Shown here in pieces: positions 6,356-52,524 of a stretch of DNA of 64,000 bases. This DNA is from a virus (Duplodnaviria > Caudoviricetes): positions 96,001 through 160,000 of the IMG/VR virus record IMGVR_UViG_3300012157_000001, one strand, 5' to 3'. The stretch's first letter is position 1; each line of letters opens with the position of its first letter. The notes beneath the pieces were generated by a model. That model was not told where the DNA came from, did not search any database, and saw only the letters and a list, made by a program, of their open reading frames with translations. The position numbers were made by a program, and so were the translations under genes.

Positions 6356-6389
6356 CCCGGCGCGGCGGCTCTGGCAGCATTGCCGTCAC

Positions 6390-24275: not shown

Positions 24276-24566
24276 TCAGACGGCAGCAGTGCTGCCAGAG
24301 TTTTCGCCGCGCAGCAAGCCCATCGCGAGATCCAGCACTTCCGCGCCCGGATCGCCCAGCACCCGCCAGACCACCAGGGCCACCGGGCGGCTCGGCCTCC
24401 GCGACCAGTCCCGGATGTCCGCCGCCGCCTCGGCCAGTTCCTCGGCCGATAGGCCGTGACGCGCCGCGGCCGCTGCGATGCGTTCCGCGTCTACGCTCGG
24501 CCTAGTTTCTAGGTCGCCCTTCCGGAGCGCCCGGTCGATTGCTGCCAGTGCTGCCATGCTAGCCAT
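24276..24566 (-). CDS. hypothetical protein
   Basis: RBS GGAAGGA; operon head. Confidence 0.5.
   Translation of the reverse strand: MASMAALAAIDRALRKGDLETRPSVDAERIAAAAARHGLSAEELAEAAADIRDWSRRPSRPVALVVWRVLGDPGAEVLDLAMGLLRGENSGSTAAV
24539..24557 (-). promoter_or_regulatory. tandem GRCAGCA operator-like motif (copy D)
   Basis: ATGGCAGCACTGGCAGCAA; an inverted pair GGCAGCA-G-TGCTGCC also at 24282-24296. Confidence 0.4.
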
Positions 24567-30756: not shown

Positions 30757-31367
30757 CGTTTACGGTACACCTTCCAGCCGCCGTGATCTTCGAGCTCGCT
30801 GAAACCGAGAGCTTCGAGCTCTCGTTGAGCTTTCTTGGTGGTCGGCCAGTCCGTGTCATCAAATACCCAAAGGCCGCCGCTGCGCACCTTGGGAGCCCAG
30901 AGCGCGACCTCTTCGCACGACACCTCTTCAGAGTGGTTCGAGTCTTGGTGCAACAGGTCGATAGTTCCGTCTCCGTAGAACCCGACGACGTCCCGTGAGC
31001 TCATTCGAATGAGCCGTGCGTACCAGACCAGGTCTAGTCGGTAGAGCGCCTCTTGGGCGCTTCGCGCGACTACTTCGTAGTCCACCTTCTGACCCCACCA
31101 CTTGTCATTTTCGGGATCATTGGTTCCCTCCAGGGCAGCCCCTGGAGTGAACGGGTCGATGCCGTCAACCCTTCCGAAGTCATTGCGTCCGCACCGCACT
31201 CCTAGCGCAATCGCGACAAGACTTCTGCCGCCGAACACGCCTAGCTCCACGCAGAGATTTTGGTCACGTGCGAGCGCCGACAACCGATAGGCTTTTTCGA
31301 TCGTGCACCATCCAAGCATGCCCGGTAGCTCCCGATCGATAATCGCTTCGACTTCCGACCGGCTCAT
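30753..31367 (-). CDS. class I SAM methyltransferase (paralog of 28790..29419)
   Basis: GWCT.EKA, VELGVFGGRS, GIDPF, IDLLHQDSNH, VFDDT. Confidence 0.85.
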   Translation of the reverse strand: MSRSEVEAIIDRELPGMLGWCTIEKAYRLSALARDQNLCVELGVFGGRSLVAIALGVRCGRNDFGRVDGIDPFTPGAALEGTNDPENDKWWGQKVDYEVVARSAQEALYRLDLVWYARLIRMSSRDVVGFYGDGTIDLLHQDSNHSEEVSCEEVALWAPKVRSGGLWVFDDTDWPTTKKAQRELEALGFSELEDHGGWKVYRKR

Positions 31368-33355
31368 GGAGTGACCCATGTCATGGTGCTGAGCTCTTTC
31401 TTATCGATGCGAGCGAACCACGCTTCACAGTCTTTGATGCCGTAGGTCAGAACAAGATCCGGACCATCCTCCACGAGGCCGGCGCAGAACTCGATGCCGT
31501 AGACCTGGAAGATCCAAGACGGAGACACTGCCGCCACATTGAACTCGGCGTCGAGCTTCACAAATCGATGCAGGTAGATTCTGGTTTCAACCGCCTCGAT
31601 CGTTTCGTGGACCACACACAAGTAGCCGCCCTCGAACGCAATCGCTGCGCCGCCGCGCGCATGGTCGAGAGCGAGCGGACACGCTCTACGCGCGTCCCCA
31701 GGGATCACTACCGTGGGATCAAGCGAATAGATGAACCGGATGTCGCCACCAACGACAACCGGCATCCAGTTCTTTTCATGCGTCTGCCGGCTCTCCTGTA
31801 CGTGAGCGTGGGTGACGTTGCCGTCGCGATCGAGGTCGAGCTTAGCGATCATTCTCCGAGCAGCATCGCGGTCGCACACGGTACAGCTCCCGGCTAGCAT
31901 TGGACCTTCCGGGCCCTTTAGCGATACCAGTCGGATGTCTTCGTATCCGACGATCTTCGAGTCTTGCCGAGGTGACGGATCCAGGTCTCGCATCCGCTTG
32001 GGATCGATCAACTCGCCAGAAGGCCCGAGACGTCCCAGGTAGTTCTCGGTTCGAACGATCCTGTCCGGGTCGTCGATGGAGTATTTCCTGCCGCTCATCG
32101 AATAGTTCACAGCACGCACGACGCACCAGAGCTCGCCATTATGGCGACAAACGCTTGGGTTCATCGGCCGATAGCCGTCGGGCGGCTCGAACTTGATCTT
32201 CGTGCTCTTCGCGCTCGGCAGCAGCTTTCCCAGCGCAAGGGGGCGGAGCATGCCCCGCGCCTCGTCACGACGTATATGCGGCGCTCGCGGCGAGACGCTC
32301 AGCCGATCCAGTTCTTCTTGGCTGCCAACGCCCAGTCGTTCCAGCTTCGCCTGAACAAAGTCACGCTCTGCCTGCGCGCGCTCTTCTCCTTCCGGGAGCG
32401 CATACCTCAAAATGTCGTATGGGAGCTCGTAGAGCGCGGGTAGGTGTTTGAAGTGCTCTCGATCGGCCGCGTGCACCCTACCGCTTCCTTTGAATCGTCC
32501 CCCCGCCTCAGCCAAGCGTGCCCACGCAATCGCCTGGTTCTTTCTACCAAGCTTAAATGCTGCCAGCGCTGCCATCCACGCACACTCGGAGTAGGTAGAA
32601 TCGGCCGCCAGACCGCGCGCCGCGGCGTAGATGGCTCCATCGAACTGCTTCATCAGGTACAGCATCTCCGCATGCTTGTACGCTGCCCACGCTGCCTCGC
32701 CGCCGAACTTGCCCAGGACAACGCAACGGTTGAAGGCATCCGCCGCCCGCTTGGGATCACCAAGTCCCTCGTACGAGGTGCCGAGGTAGTACCACCACCG
32801 CGCAGCGGTAGGCTCTTTCTTCACGTACTCCGAGAGCAATGCGACGTCTTGGATATACTTCCTGGCGTACTGTTCCTTCGATTTTTCGAGCTCCAGGAAC
32901 GATGCTCCCTTTAGGGTCGTCCTGGACCCACAGTGCAGGAACTCATGCGTCGGTCCGGTGAAGCACGCGCCTCGACGGGCGCGAATGATCTTCTCCTTCG
33001 AGTAGAAGCCCGTGAAGCTCTCCATGAGCACCACTTCTTCTTTGATCGCCGCAAGCGAGGATCTCAGATCCCGCTCTCCGAAGCTGAGTCGCTCGTCCGA
33101 GTCGACAATGACAATCCAAGTCGCTCCTAACTCTTCGGCGAAGCGGAAGCCCGCGTTCCTGGCAGTCGAAAAGTCGACCCAGGCGTGCTTGGCCAGGCGC
33201 AGCTTCTCCTTCGCTACCTCTCGCGCCACCGCTTCCGTGCCGTCCTTGATTCCGGTGTCAACGAGAAGCACCCGATCGACGTGATCAACCACGCTTCGAA
33301 TCGCGTCGCCGATCTCTGATTCGCGGCTATCGGTGATGGTGACAGAAACGATCAA
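31364..33355 (-). CDS. GT2 glycosyltransferase + TPR + five-bladed propeller (GH130/GH43-like) fusion
   Basis: LVDTG..DGT, WVDFSTARN, VDSDE, GPTHE; TPR RWWYYLGTSY; MNPSV, GYEDIRL, EKNWMP, RGG, IEFCAGL. Confidence 0.8.
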   Translation of the reverse strand: MIVSVTITDSRESEIGDAIRSVVDHVDRVLLVDTGIKDGTEAVAREVAKEKLRLAKHAWVDFSTARNAGFRFAEELGATWIVIVDSDERLSFGERDLRSSLAAIKEEVVLMESFTGFYSKEKIIRARRGACFTGPTHEFLHCGSRTTLKGASFLELEKSKEQYARKYIQDVALLSEYVKKEPTAARWWYYLGTSYEGLGDPKRAADAFNRCVVLGKFGGEAAWAAYKHAEMLYLMKQFDGAIYAAARGLAADSTYSECAWMAALAAFKLGRKNQAIAWARLAEAGGRFKGSGRVHAADREHFKHLPALYELPYDILRYALPEGEERAQAERDFVQAKLERLGVGSQEELDRLSVSPRAPHIRRDEARGMLRPLALGKLLPSAKSTKIKFEPPDGYRPMNPSVCRHNGELWCVVRAVNYSMSGRKYSIDDPDRIVRTENYLGRLGPSGELIDPKRMRDLDPSPRQDSKIVGYEDIRLVSLKGPEGPMLAGSCTVCDRDAARRMIAKLDLDRDGNVTHAHVQESRQTHEKNWMPVVVGGDIRFIYSLDPTVVIPGDARRACPLALDHARGGAAIAFEGGYLCVVHETIEAVETRIYLHRFVKLDAEFNVAAVSPSWIFQVYGIEFCAGLVEDGPDLVLTYGIKDCEAWFARIDKKELSTMTWVTP

Positions 33356-48678: not shown

Positions 48679-48861
48679 CTATCCGGTGCTGTCAGTGCTG
48701 TCAAGACGGGCGCGCTGCCGCAGGCACCAGCGGGCGAGCTCGACGTTGTGGAACTCGACCGCCTCGTGTTGCATTCGGATGAGCTCCCGCAGGTATTCAC
48801 GCCGAAAAACCGGGTCGGTCAGTTGTTCTTCGACCCATGGTTCGCGGCGAGTGGTGGACAC
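48679..48861 (-). CDS. small hypothetical protein downstream of the array
   Basis: EQLTDPVFRREY resembles N-termini of HigA-like proteins; weak. Confidence 0.35.
   Translation of the reverse strand: MSTTRREPWVEEQLTDPVFRREYLRELIRMQHEAVEFHNVELARWCLRQRARLDSTDSTG
48686..48704 (-). promoter_or_regulatory. -35 box with tandem GACAGCAC operator-like motif upstream of the helicase (copy A)
   Basis: TTGACAGCACTGACAGCAC, followed by GATAGAT and RBS GGGAGG. Confidence 0.55.
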
Positions 48862-48936
48862 AACACGCCGAGCGTACAGTGCGGCTGGACGCGCGCGCCA
48901 GTTTTACGTGCCGCGCGCGCATTCGATGCACATATC

Positions 48937-50352
48937 GTCGGATATTGTTTGCCTCTCCGTGGGCGCTTCTCAAGGGGGATCCTCGGAGGCATACGGGCCC
49001 CTCCGCGGGCGCTTTTGACAGCAGTGAAGTCGCCGGGCTCAAAAGGGAGAGGCCCGCCGGAGACACGACGCCTCTCCGTGGGCACTGAGCTCCCTCATCT
49101 TTCTCGGAGCAACGATGCCACTCCGCGGGCGCTCGGGGGCAATTTGTCCATGGTCGGAGTCACAACGCCACTCCGCGGGCACCGAAGGAAACAGAGCGGC
49201 CCGGAGGTACGACGCCTCTCCGTGGGCTTCCGCTGGCCAGTCGGGTGTCGTCGGAGGCACTACGCCGCTCCGCGGGCGCTGATGACGAAGCACTACATCA
49301 CCTCGGAGAGACCTCGCCGCTCCGCCGGCTCTGATCGCGCCCCCATCGGGGAACGTCGCAATGTGGCGCATATGCCCGGAGACACGACGCCTCTCCGCGG
49401 GCGCTGATGGCCCCCAACCGGAGATCCTGAATGAACCCCGCCAACGCCTCGGAGACACGACGCCTCTCCGCGGGCGCTGACGGCTTTCCGAAGACAGGCG
49501 GCTCGTGCGCATGTTGCGGCCCGGAGACACAACGCCCCTCCGCGGGCTCTGACGGGAGCATCCTGCTGGTGAGCGGCGCGCCATCGGGGTGCTCTCGGAG
49601 ACACGACGCCCCTCCGCGGGCTCTGCTGGATCGAATGCGGCGTCTGATGGAGCTCGCATCCTCGTCTCGGAGAGAACGACGCCCCTCCGCGGGCTCTGAC
49701 GGACGTAGTACGGCACGCCGTACACGCTGCTGGAGAAGCCTCGGAGACACGACGCCCCTCCGCGGGCGCTGATGGTCGTTGCGGCGCCGTAGGCCATTGT
49801 GAAGAGCTGGTCTCGGAGACACGACGCCCCTCCGCGGGCTCTGGCGGTCACGAACACGGAACGCTCCTCGACCTCGACGACTCGGAGAAACCACGCCGCT
49901 CCGCCGGCTCTGATCGCCGGGCACGCGCAGAGCGATGTACTCGATTGCCTGGACCTCGGAGAAACCACGCCGCTCCGCCGGCTCTGATCGTTGCTTCCGC
50001 CGTGGCTTTCGACACTTGGGTCGGCTCGGAGACACGACGCCCCTCCGCGGGCGCTGATGGATGCACCGCCGGAAGTTGGATGCGCGGTCACCCTTTGCTC
50101 GGAGACACGACGCCCCTCCGCGGGCTCTGATTGGGCGTAGATCGAGTTCGCCAAGCCCATCAGGGTGACGTCGGAGACACGACGCCCCTCCGCGGGCTCT
50201 GATTGGCGGTCAATGCCGAAGACGGTTCGGTCTGGGCGTGGGTCGGAGACACGACGCCCCTCCGCGGGCTCTGATTGGGAGCTCATCCAATTGTCGACAC
50301 GACCGTCAGGACCGGGTCGGAGACACGACGCCCCTCCGCGGGCTCTGATTGG
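48937..50352 (-). CRISPR. CRISPR array, 22 repeats (36-37 nt). Leader-proximal consensus CCAATCAGAGCCCGCGGAGGGGCGTCGTGTCTCCGAC. 14 spacers of 33-38 nt, then a degenerate tail with mostly 9-16 nt spacers
   Basis: repeat starts (+ coordinates) 50316, 50242, 50170, 50098, 50025, 49955, 49881, 49812, 49740, 49666, 49594, 49520, 49448, 49375, 49302, 49250, 49200, 49153, 49103, 49056, 48982, 48937; CGGAG/CTCCG stem; the identical copies are nearest the cas gene. Confidence 0.95.
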
Positions 50353-50423
50353 GGGCGCCGTAGCGACCCCTTTCGATTCGGGTGCTTGCATTGCATTTTG
50401 CGAGCGGTCCCATGGGCCGCTAC

Positions 50424-52433
50424 TTACTCCGCGGCTGAGACCGTTGGGCCTTCGTCCGTGTTCGCGTTCGTTTCGACGTCGTTTGCGGCATCGCGAGCGG
50501 CTGCCGCCTTTTTCGCGGCACCGGACTGGTCGCGCTCTTTGTAGCGGTCCGGACCGAACGCTGCCTTCAGCGCTGCCTTGAGCTCATGCACGCAGGCGAG
50601 CTGCCGATTGTGTCGTGCCGCCTGGTGGAGCTCGTTCGGCTTGTCCTCGGCCTTGTCCCGAAGCGCGATCTGATCGAGGTCTACCGCGCCGCTCACCTCG
50701 CAGATCTCGAACTGCGTACAAAGCTTCGCCGCGGTCACTCGATAGAAGTCGCGGCGGCGCCCCATTGCGTGGTTGCGCGCACCCGCTGCCATCGCTTCGA
50801 GGTGCTCGTCTTTCCGGCGCCACATCGCGAGCCAGAAGGTGAAAATCGTGTCCGGCGTGGTGAGCCCAAGGATCGCGGCGTACTTGCCGATGTCCGGCTC
50901 GAAGAGATCTTCGTGCGCCGCACGTCGCAGGTCGCGCCAGCGCTTCCACATGGCGTACTCCTCTTCACGCTTGTCGAGTACTTCGAGCATCACAGCCGAG
51001 ACGCGCTTGAGCTTCCAGTGCGCGCGCCACTGCGACAGACCGTGCGCCGCCTCGAACACGCGAGTCGGCTGCGACGCGATCCGCTTGGCGACCTCGGCAC
51101 GCGCGCTGTCGAAGAGGGTGTCGGCGACGCTGCGGAGCCTCTCCGCGAACCGCAGCGATTCGACTACTCCCGCCCGGCGGCCACGCTCGTGCGCGCCGCC
51201 AGGAAGCCGGAGCGGCTCGCCGTTGACGTGCGCGACGATCAGCGTCTTGTTCTCGTTGTCCTGCGTCCAGCAGAGGCGCACGTTCACCGTTCCCGTTCCG
51301 GGCGCGCGCTGAATGAGCGGCTCCGTCGGATCGAGGGTGAACTGCAAGCTGTACTCCCAGCGACCCGGCGACTCCTCGCTCGGAACGAGGTACGCCCACC
51401 GCACCTTGGTATCCGGCGGGATCGGCCGGTGGAGCACGACGTCCATGGTCACCCACCAGTTGCCAGCGGGGCCGTCGTACTTCGGCCGGTAGTAGTCCGG
51501 TGCCGCCGCCAATGCCTCGCGCGTCTCGGCGCGCACGCGCATGTGCACGGTCGCGCGCTGCTTGACGCGGCCGCCGTTCGCGCCGCCTTGGTTGCGCACG
51601 TCCGTGATCCGGAGCTCGTTGTTCTTGCCGGCGAGCAGATCGCCCCACGTGGCGTCGTTGATCTCCCAGCCGATCCGGCGGAGCCGCCTGCGGCTATACG
51701 TCGGTCGCCGCTTCGGACGACGGGGCTCGCCGTCGGGCCGCGGCTTCGGGCGCTTGCATGCCGCCGGCAGGTCTACACGCTGAATTGAGTGGTACGTGCC
51801 AACGGAGAGCAGCCTTGCCTCTTTGATCCAACCACGCAGCGCATCGGCTTGCGTCTCCAGCTGCGCGAGCCGACGCCACGCCTCAGGCCATTGCGCCTCT
51901 GCGAGCATTTCGTCACGCGCCTGAATGTCCGACCGCCGCTTTGCGTGGCGGTCTCCATCATTCGAGCCCCACGCCGAGCGGAGTCGCGCCGACCGCGCCG
52001 TGAACTCTTGCTGCGCCGGCTCCACGACCGCGGCGAACTGGCCACGCATCGGCTTCGCTAGCTCCGCGGCCGCTTTGCGCCAGGCCTTCAGCTCCGTGAT
52101 CAGGTCGACCTCGTCCGATACGTCCACGGCTTTCTTCACCGGCTTCACCGGCCGTCCTGTCGCCGCCGTCGCCTTGCGTCGCTTCTCGCGGATGCCTCCG
52201 CGCTTGCCGCCCTTGCCCGCGTGCTCGCCGATCCACTCGTCGAGCTGCTGGTACGCTTCGTCGATCTCGCCGAGCCCCGGCACGGTCTCCGACCGGATCG
52301 CGGCGAACTGTGAGCGGCGCCACCGCTCGATGGTCACGAGCGACTGATAGTACTGCGCTGCCGCGCGCATCTCCGCAAGCGCGAGCGACTCACCGGTCAG
52401 GAACTTTCGAACACCGAACTTGGCAACGAGCAT
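50424..52433 (-). CDS. cas12m: Cas12m-like (type V-M / V-U1, TnpB-derived) effector, predicted nuclease-dead and lacking the C-terminal Zn finger/RuvC-III
   Basis: 669 aa from ATG 52433 (RBS AAGGAG). Motifs match my recollection of Cas12m: YYQSLVTIER, WVTMDVVLHRPIP..TKVRWAYL, GTVNVRLCW (RuvC-I position), QWRA, W...D.HL.....GAR..A.GRRRDFYR..AAKL, R..A...EL...L. Lies 71 nt from the array. Confidence 0.8.
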   Translation of the reverse strand: MLVAKFGVRKFLTGESLALAEMRAAAQYYQSLVTIERWRRSQFAAIRSETVPGLGEIDEAYQQLDEWIGEHAGKGGKRGGIREKRRKATAATGRPVKPVKKAVDVSDEVDLITELKAWRKAAAELAKPMRGQFAAVVEPAQQEFTARSARLRSAWGSNDGDRHAKRRSDIQARDEMLAEAQWPEAWRRLAQLETQADALRGWIKEARLLSVGTYHSIQRVDLPAACKRPKPRPDGEPRRPKRRPTYSRRRLRRIGWEINDATWGDLLAGKNNELRITDVRNQGGANGGRVKQRATVHMRVRAETREALAAAPDYYRPKYDGPAGNWWVTMDVVLHRPIPPDTKVRWAYLVPSEESPGRWEYSLQFTLDPTEPLIQRAPGTGTVNVRLCWTQDNENKTLIVAHVNGEPLRLPGGAHERGRRAGVVESLRFAERLRSVADTLFDSARAEVAKRIASQPTRVFEAAHGLSQWRAHWKLKRVSAVMLEVLDKREEEYAMWKRWRDLRRAAHEDLFEPDIGKYAAILGLTTPDTIFTFWLAMWRRKDEHLEAMAAGARNHAMGRRRDFYRVTAAKLCTQFEICEVSGAVDLDQIALRDKAEDKPNELHQAARHNRQLACVHELKAALKAAFGPDRYKERDQSGAAKKAAAARDAANDVETNANTDEGPTVSAAE

Positions 52434-52505
52434 GGGACTGGTCTCCTTTGTCTTTGGTTCAAGCAGTCGAGGCGAGCGCTTCGCCCCGCGCTGCCATTGA
52501 CCCAC

Positions 52506-52524
52506 GTGCTGCCAGTGCTGTCAA
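52506..52524 (-). promoter_or_regulatory. -35 box with tandem operator-like motif upstream of the cas12m-like gene (copy B)
   Basis: TTGACAGCACTGGCAGCAC, 18/19 identical to copy A; GTCAAT 17 nt after TTGACA. Confidence 0.55.

What the first reader, a model, noticed from the sequence alone, without database searches (positions are those of the whole stretch)
48937..49301. Distal array tail of structure-conserving degenerate repeats with 9-16 nt mini-spacers
Seen: after 14 normal spacers, the gaps between repeats become 16, 14, 11, 14, 11, 37 and about 9 nt. In these seven repeats the loop and outer end diverge, while the CGGAG...CTCCG stem (CGGAT in the last copy) and the following (C/T)GGGC persist. 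Simple decay would not be expected to shorten nearly every spacer to a similar length while sparing the stem. Inference: these are streamlined guides (about 50-nt units, with the guide running into the eroded 5' end of the next repeat) fixed for a regulatory role, analogous to scaRNA/CreA-type partial-match repression.
Basis: partly seen in the sequence, partly recalled or inferred. Interest (0 to 1): 0.8.

Follow-up and report, generated by a model that had tools for sequence, protein, structure and literature searches.

The report
Conserved trimmed guides of phage Cas12m
A large phage, probably of predatory myxobacteria, carries a non-cutting CRISPR protein whose oldest guides have been trimmed to the exact length such proteins use and kept almost unchanged in related phages, so they look like a fixed gene-silencing programme, although what they silence is not yet shown.

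Summary
The minus-strand, 22-repeat array lies behind a nuclease-dead, C-terminally truncated Cas12m-like gene in a complete 179-kb phage, with a likely Polyangiaceae host.

The tail is not decay:
- Pseudoknot pairing bases change at 1 of 112 positions; unpaired bases change at 51 of 105.
- All 24 short gaps found in this protein family are 17 nt or longer, the Cas12m heteroduplex length.
- A relative with 93% identical Cas12m shares five tail guides at 82 of 85 bases, against 67% at neutral sites; its proximal spacers differ entirely.
- A second relative shares part of the tail. A second array in this genome and a 52%-identical homolog have their own short units.

These are full-length guides, so the scaRNA/CreA partial-match analogy is unnecessary. 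The 37-nt gap is a 17-nt guide plus a relic unit.

Targets are unresolved. None lies in the phage itself. Guide A matches a Polyangiaceae response-regulator gene 16/16 with a TTN flank, but controls show such hits arise by chance. Four other guides found no PAM-flanked target.

Phage Cas12m is already published; I found no report of a conserved trimmed tail. On other DNA, the scan noted phage Cas12m loci and selection limited to the first ~17 spacer bases (unchecked), but not this tail.

The parts
50424..52433 (-). cas12m-like gene, 669 aa. RuvC-I Asp replaced by Arg, no RuvC-II acid at the expected place, no zinc finger or RuvC-III.
   Evidence: PADLOC Cas12u1 E=2e-28; PDB Cas12m 23vw E=2e-8; Foldseek top four hits all Cas12m, best 8hhl E=4e-13; 0/27 family members have a C-terminal CxxC pair
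52505..52524 (-). Promoter/operator-like motif upstream of cas12m (TTGACA overlapping a GRCAGCA direct repeat)
   Evidence: Conserved in L002, L008, L012 and L019; function inferred
50352..50423 (-). Leader between the cas12m stop codon and the first repeat
   Evidence: 74-84% identical to relatives
49338..50351 (-). Proximal array: repeats 1-14 with 33-38-nt spacers, none shared with relatives
49285..49337 (-). Repeat 15 plus guide A (17 nt, 49285-49301), identical in three phages. Candidate host match: Polyangiaceae single-domain response regulator, 16/16 with TTG/TTC flank.
   Evidence: specificity limited
49233..49285 (-). Repeat 16 plus guide B; not seen in relatives
49183..49235 (-). Repeat 17 plus guide C; not seen in relatives
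49136..49188 (-). Repeat 18 plus guide D, 16/17 identical in L019
49086..49138 (-). Repeat 19 plus guide E, 17/17 identical in L019
49039..49091 (-). Repeat 20 plus guide F, 17/17 identical in L019 and diverged after 7 nt in L012
49011..49038 (-). Relic unit G: GCCC remnant plus the 3' part of a unit that is complete in L012; keeps a palindromic operator-like motif also found at phage promoters
48965..49018 (-). Repeat 21 plus guide H; first 13 nt identical in L019 and first 9 nt in L012
48937..48972 (-). Terminal repeat 22; the following 17 nt are homologous in both relatives

Best explanation
The tail is a block of old but working crRNA units for the phage's own nuclease-dead Cas12m-like protein. 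Shown: deletions and substitutions removed only what Cas12m does not use (spacer bases beyond about 17, the 5' 8 nt of the repeat, the 7-nt loop) and spared the pseudoknot and a 17-nt guide; the guides are under purifying selection across related phages. Inferred from characterised Cas12m: the array is transcribed from the leader and cut into crRNAs of about 45-53 nt, and the complex binds 17-bp targets next to a T-rich PAM and blocks transcription without cutting. Inferred, weakest step: guides kept this long need targets that do not escape, most likely genes of the Polyangiaceae host. The array would then have a variable proximal part against competing elements and a fixed distal part that works as a multiplexed repressor of host genes. 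My odds: about 0.85 that the units are selected functional guides, about 0.55 given that for mainly host chromosomal targets.
For: Core versus unpaired change 1/112 versus 51/105. 24 distinct short gaps across two arrays of this genome and four relatives range 17-34 nt, none below 17 (p about 1e-7 under a uniform 0-34 null). Cas12m2 forms a 17-bp heteroduplex with a disordered 5' 7 nt (PMC10442227); PmCas12m, the closest solved relative by sequence, trims guides at position 17-18 and works best at 17 nt (10.64898/2026.03.26.714355). Window versus L019: 82/85 guide bases identical against 67% at fourfold-degenerate sites (binomial p 3e-11) and 20/35 in the loops of the same units (Fisher p 3e-7), which argues against recent cassette transfer. 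Short units recur in a second array of this genome and upstream of a 52%-identical homolog. Host inferred from DnaB, all four hits Polyangiaceae/Myxococcales. Guide A has 8 perfect 16-nt hits in 301 Polyangiaceae genomes, all with a TTG or TTC flank: 7 in a receiver-domain gene and 1 (17/17) in a gene whose motif looks like an acyl-CoA dehydrogenase.
Against: No target is proven and the PAM of this protein is unknown. Guides D, E, F and B gave no perfect PAM-flanked hit in the same 301 genomes. Guide A reads as a common, codon-optimal protein motif: across GTDB only 8 of 49 TTN-flanked hits are Polyangiaceae/Myxococcales and most others are in the acyl-CoA dehydrogenase-like motif of other phyla. 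Two guides from the second array gave 7 unrelated perfect hits, 1 with TTN, so such hits do occur by chance. Conservation against the more distant L012 is strong only for guide A (38/51 overall, p 0.06). The complete arrays of 40-46%-identical homologs L016, L017 and L023 have no tail. No expression data could be obtained.
Confidence: 0.47

Rival explanations
1. Same working, trimmed guides, but aimed at conserved sites in competing phages, prophages or plasmids of the same host (superinfection exclusion or inter-element competition), as is usual for type V-M.
For: V-M systems are enriched on mobile elements and block plasmid transcription (PMC11656645). Most tail guides found no host hit. The host's other mobile elements are poorly sampled: only two relatives of the effector were found in IMG/VR.
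Against: Mobile-element targets usually escape, whereas these guides stayed unchanged while about a third of neutral sites changed. No hit in IMG/VR, INPHARED, PLSDB or the related phage loci beyond chance level.
Confidence: 0.3
2. The conserved sequences work in cis or as decoys rather than as DNA guides: for example a terminator-like hairpin and U-run at unit F, a repressor operator in relic G, or scaffolds that titrate Cas12m.
For: Relic G lost its scaffold in two phages yet keeps the palindromic operator-like motif. Guide F can pair with its own repeat and ends in a T-run; several chance database hits to F are terminator arms.
Against: This does not explain the 17-nt floor in 24 units or the base-for-base conservation of A, D and E. 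The alternative hairpin at F is the predicted minimum-energy fold in only one of three phages. No terminator was called on the minus strand of the tail.
Confidence: 0.1
3. Autoregulation: partial-match guides repress the phage's own cas12m or other phage promoters, as CreR, scaRNA or tracr-L do.
For: Relic G resembles the motif at the cas12m and helicase promoters (pair I3).
Against: The longest TTN-flanked seed match of any tail guide in the complete genome is 8 nt, the same as for proximal spacers, and no tail guide has a site within 2 mismatches in 17 nt. The promoter-like part of G lies mostly outside the 17-nt window in L012, where the scaffold is intact.
Confidence: 0.07
4. Neutral trailer-end decay with ancestral spacers simply inherited.
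For: Trailer ends of CRISPR arrays are commonly shared and degenerate (own knowledge). Units are gained or lost inside the tail among the three phages.
Against: Guides are far more conserved than neutral sites and than loops of the same units; pairing bases are spared; no gap falls below 17 nt.
Confidence: 0.06

Closest known systems
Type V-M CRISPR-Cas12m (MmCas12m/Cas12m2 PDB 8HHL, GoCas12m 8PM4, PmCas12m 23VW; PMC10442227, PMC11013384, 10.64898/2026.03.26.714355)
   Same: Effector sequence and fold, 36-nt pseudoknotted repeat, non-canonical RuvC, 17-nt working guide length
   Different: The whole 27-member family lacks the zinc finger and RuvC-III. The array has two tiers, with a conserved tail already cut to mature-crRNA size; I found no such tail described in the papers read.
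MvCas12m of myxophage MV-1 (10.64898/2026.09.14.751636)
   Same: Phage-borne Cas12m without cas1/cas2, Polyangiales host, no targets identified
   Different: MvCas12m keeps D-E-D and has eight spacers with one consensus repeat; no trimmed conserved tail reported
Cracr arrays, CreR/CreA, scaRNA (10.1101/2024.10.29.618823; 10.1101/2023.03.03.530964; 10.1101/2023.03.10.532045)
   Same: Degenerate repeats that keep the structure, short guides, multiplexing on phages, proposed silencing
   Different: Those are stand-alone mini-elements that redirect a host, cleavage-competent effector by partial matching to cas or toxin promoters. Here the units are inside an array beside the phage's own dead effector and are full length for it.
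TldR, phage-encoded nuclease-dead TnpB repressors (10.1101/2023.11.30.569447; PMC13418256)
   Same: Phage RNA-guided, nuclease-dead TnpB-lineage protein with a fixed guide that silences a host gene; best functional analogy if host targets hold
   Different: TldR has one omega-type RNA guide; this system has a CRISPR array with many fixed guides plus an acquiring end

Membership tests
Type V-M (Cas12m) | Single effector homologous to Cas12m/V-U1 | tested here: met
Type V-M (Cas12m) | Adjacent array with about 36-nt two-stem pseudoknot repeats | tested here: met
Type V-M (Cas12m) | Non-canonical RuvC triad | tested here: met
   RuvC-I Arg (His, Asp, Glu and others in relatives), no RuvC-II acid at the expected place
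Type V-M (Cas12m) | TNB zinc finger and RuvC-III as in solved Cas12m structures | tested here: not met
   0/27 have a C-terminal CxxC pair; the protein ends in a low-confidence tail. Filed as a truncated Cas12m-like variant, not a canonical member.
Type V-M (Cas12m) | T-rich PAM | tested here: inconclusive
   Only guide A's candidate hits show TTN; no long spacer found its protospacer; reading-frame test not significant
Type V-M (Cas12m) | Self-processing of pre-crRNA and DNA binding without cleavage | not testable with these tools
   Needs biochemistry; no read data
scaRNA / CreA / CreR / Cracr regulatory RNAs | Stand-alone element with one or a few repeat-like units outside the main array | tested here: not met
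   The tail is continuous with the 22-repeat array
scaRNA / CreA / CreR / Cracr regulatory RNAs | Partial PAM-flanked match to a cas or toxin promoter | tested here: inconclusive
   None in the phage genome; host cas promoters could not be checked because the host strain is unknown
scaRNA / CreA / CreR / Cracr regulatory RNAs | Guide shorter than the effector needs for cleavage | tested here: not met
   All gaps are at least 17 nt, the full Cas12m length, and the effector lacks its catalytic residues
TldR | TnpB-sized dead nuclease with a single omega-type RNA | tested here: not met
   669-aa Cas12m-like fold with a CRISPR array
TldR | Fixed guide that silences a host gene | tested here: inconclusive
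   Fixed guides shown; host target only suggested for guide A

The most novel reading that the evidence does not exclude
A phage CRISPR system domesticated into a multiplexed, hard-wired transcription factor. A truncated dead Cas12m uses about a dozen conserved, pre-trimmed guides from two arrays to silence host signalling and other genes (for example a conserved single-domain response regulator) in predatory myxobacteria, while the leader end still acquires spacers.
Probability: 0.4. Interest if true: 0.85.

Novelty: new variant of a known kind. Interest (0 to 1): 0.64.

Why it matters
It shows a CRISPR array passing from memory to a fixed programme: selection cuts old units down to the exact RNA the effector uses and then freezes their sequence. 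If the targets are host genes, this extends the TldR idea from one guide to a multiplexed CRISPR repressor and gives a direct list of host functions that a myxobacterial phage needs to switch off. The natural units of 45-53 nt with diversified scaffolds, and an effector without zinc finger and RuvC-III, are also a ready design for compact, low-repetition CRISPRi arrays.

Tried and rejected
- Self-targets in the complete phage genome: none beyond chance.
- Array against INPHARED and PLSDB: only chance pieces, nothing for the second array.
- Exact scans of IMG/VR for guides A, D, E, F and spacer 1: matches end at or within two bases of the pattern end and are mostly in unrelated or low-GC contigs.
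- The 20-nt version of guide A in GTDB: one chance hit.
- Guides D, E, F and B in 301 Polyangiaceae genomes: no perfect PAM-flanked hit. One 15/17 TTT-flanked hit for F lies on a ribosome-binding site in a single genome, at control level.
- The idea that short guides are enriched for gene starts: ATG/CAT in the first 20 nt in 13/23 short versus 24/49 long units, no enrichment; a reading-frame test for a TTN PAM was not significant.
- Similarity of guide A to cas12m's own DVVLHR coding sequence: the DNA does not match.
- L001 repeat hit: a chance match inside a coding gene.
- Several close relatives (L002-L011, L013, L015, L237) end within the first repeats, so their tails could not be read.

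Full report
Setting. The window is bases 96001-160000 of a 179,401-nt virus record with direct terminal repeats, rated complete, with no cas1. It carries 32 tRNA genes and a tmRNA. Its DnaB retrieves only Polyangiaceae/Myxococcales genomes, best Minicystis rosea at 49%, so the host is probably a Polyangiaceae myxobacterium. This is an inference, not a spacer-based link.

The observation. On the minus strand there are 22 repeats from 50351 to 48937, 72 nt downstream of a 669-aa gene. Spacers 1-14 are 33-38 nt; the rest are 16, 14, 11, 14, 11, 37 and 9 nt. The repeat is a two-helix pseudoknot: GCCC pairs with the loop GGGC and CGGAG pairs with CTCCG. Across 23 repeats from this and related loci 92.6% of cells pair and five pairs show two-sided changes; no shuffle reached this (related sequences can inflate this test). 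In the seven tail repeats the pairing core has changed at 1 of 112 positions and the unpaired 5' end and loop at 51 of 105.

The effector. The gene at 50424-52433 matches PADLOC Cas12u1 and solved Cas12m sequences, and its model's four best structural hits are Cas12m. RuvC-I carries Arg instead of Asp, the RuvC-II acid is missing, and the zinc finger and RuvC-III are absent in all 27 aligned family members, so the truncation is a family trait. It is the only copy in the genome.

What the short length means. Cas12m2 forms a 17-bp heteroduplex and the first 7 nt of its repeat are disordered (PMC10442227). PmCas12m cuts its pre-crRNA near the repeat start and at guide position 17-18, and works best with 17 nt (10.64898/2026.03.26.714355). 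Measured from repeat end to the next GCCC, the window's gaps are 24, 22, 19, 22, 19, 17 (plus relic) and 17 nt. Pooling 24 distinct short units from this genome and four relatives gives 17-34 nt and none shorter (p about 1e-7 for a uniform 0-34 null; the null is crude). The units are therefore pre-trimmed, full-length guides and not partial-match guides.

Conservation. Two relatives have complete arrays between cas12m and the same SNF2 helicase. L019 (93% identical Cas12m) has one ordinary spacer and then about twelve short units; L012 (87%) has five ordinary spacers and a five-unit tail. No proximal spacer is shared. Guides A, D, E, F and H of the window match L019 at 82 of 85 bases, against 67% at fourfold-degenerate sites of cas12m (p 3e-11) and 20 of 35 in the loops of the same units (p 3e-7). 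Guide A is identical in all three phages; F and H keep only their first 7 and 9 nt in L012, and overall guide identity to L012 is not significant (38/51). Units are also gained or lost inside the tail: B and C are window-only, and others are L019- or L012-only. The 37-nt gap is guide F plus a GCCC remnant and the 3' part of a unit that is intact in L012; the relic keeps a palindromic motif also found at phage promoters.

Recurrence. The same genome has a second, cas-less array at 31,249-32,740 with the same scaffold, long proximal units and seven short units of 20-23 nt. A 52%-identical homolog has three degenerate repeats 50 and 53 nt apart directly upstream of its gene, and L002 begins its array with a 25-nt unit. 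Complete arrays of more distant homologs (L016, L017, L023) have no tail.

Targets. None in the phage itself or in related phage loci. Guide A has eight perfect 16-nt hits in 301 Polyangiaceae genomes, all flanked by TTG or TTC. Seven lie antisense to a single-domain response-regulator gene and one (17/17) in a gene whose motif looks like an acyl-CoA dehydrogenase, a reading from my own knowledge that I did not confirm by profile search. TT precedes 3.6% of positions and 6% of codons begin with AA in these genomes, so two independent TTN-flanked families are notable. But the guide spells a common codon-optimal motif: across GTDB 8 of 49 TTN-flanked hits are Polyangiaceae/Myxococcales and most others fall in the dehydrogenase-like motif of other phyla. 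Two guides of the second array gave seven unrelated perfect hits, one with TTN, and spacer 1 gave three unrelated 18-nt hits in IMG/VR. Guides D, E, F and B gave no perfect PAM-flanked hit, which is expected if their targets are strain-specific or non-coding and the true host is not in the sample, but equally if they aim at mobile elements. The response-regulator match is a lead, not a result.

Mechanism and verdict. Shown: structure-preserving trimming to a 17-nt floor and purifying selection on guide sequence. Inferred from characterised Cas12m: processing, loading and PAM-dependent DNA binding that blocks transcription. Open: the targets; I give 0.47 to a mainly host-directed fixed programme, 0.30 to conserved sites on competing elements, and the rest to cis or decoy roles, autoregulation or decay. 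Phage-borne Cas12m has been reported (10.64898/2026.09.14.751636; PMC11656645), as have phage arrays of degenerate regulatory guides that use host effectors (10.1101/2024.10.29.618823) and single-guide phage repressors (TldR). In five literature searches I found no description of a conserved, pre-trimmed tail on a phage's own dead Cas12m. It is a new variant of a known kind.

Noticed in passing
G000 31249-32740 (L035:12249-13740, + strand, outside the window): Second, cas-less array with the same pseudoknot scaffold, long proximal units, a 220-nt insert and seven short units of 20-23 nt; probably served in trans by the same Cas12m.
   Followed up: partly
L015:9835-9965: Three degenerate repeats 50 and 53 nt apart directly upstream of a 52%-identical cas12m homolog, separate from its downstream array.
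   Followed up: partly
window 52505-52524, 48687-48704, 49011-49034, 24282-24296, 6373-6387; G000 65292 and 31124: A phage-wide GRCAGCA motif occurs as direct repeats over -35 boxes (cas12m, helicase) and as palindromes, including inside the array relic and in the leader of the second array; likely a phage regulator site.
   Followed up: partly
window 49955-49990, 49881-49916, 49302-49337: A second repeat allele with a compensatory swap (GCCG with CGGC) is interleaved with the main allele and is the dominant type in the second array, suggesting exchange between the two arrays.
   Followed up: partly
window 49039-49091: Guide F can pair with its own repeat and ends in a T-run, so unit 20 may also act as an attenuator; predicted as the best fold only in L019.
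   Followed up: partly
L002:8007-8253: In a 92%-identical relative the usual leader is missing and the array starts about 30 nt after the stop codon with a short unit; one repeat has a compensatory change in the main stem.
   Followed up: no
L236:3700-3760: A 45%-identical homolog is followed by a single repeat and one guide only.
   Followed up: no
window about 48680-48870 (- strand): A small ORF of about 60 codons, conserved with third-position changes in both relatives, lies between the array and the helicase promoter.
   Followed up: no
G000 172704-178357 and 165355-165693: Cluster of 31 tRNA genes and a phage tmRNA.
   Followed up: no
L021:6001-7545: A more distant phage Cas12m-like protein (about 514 aa, 28% identical in the aligned part) with a regular five-repeat array of a different repeat type.
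   Followed up: no
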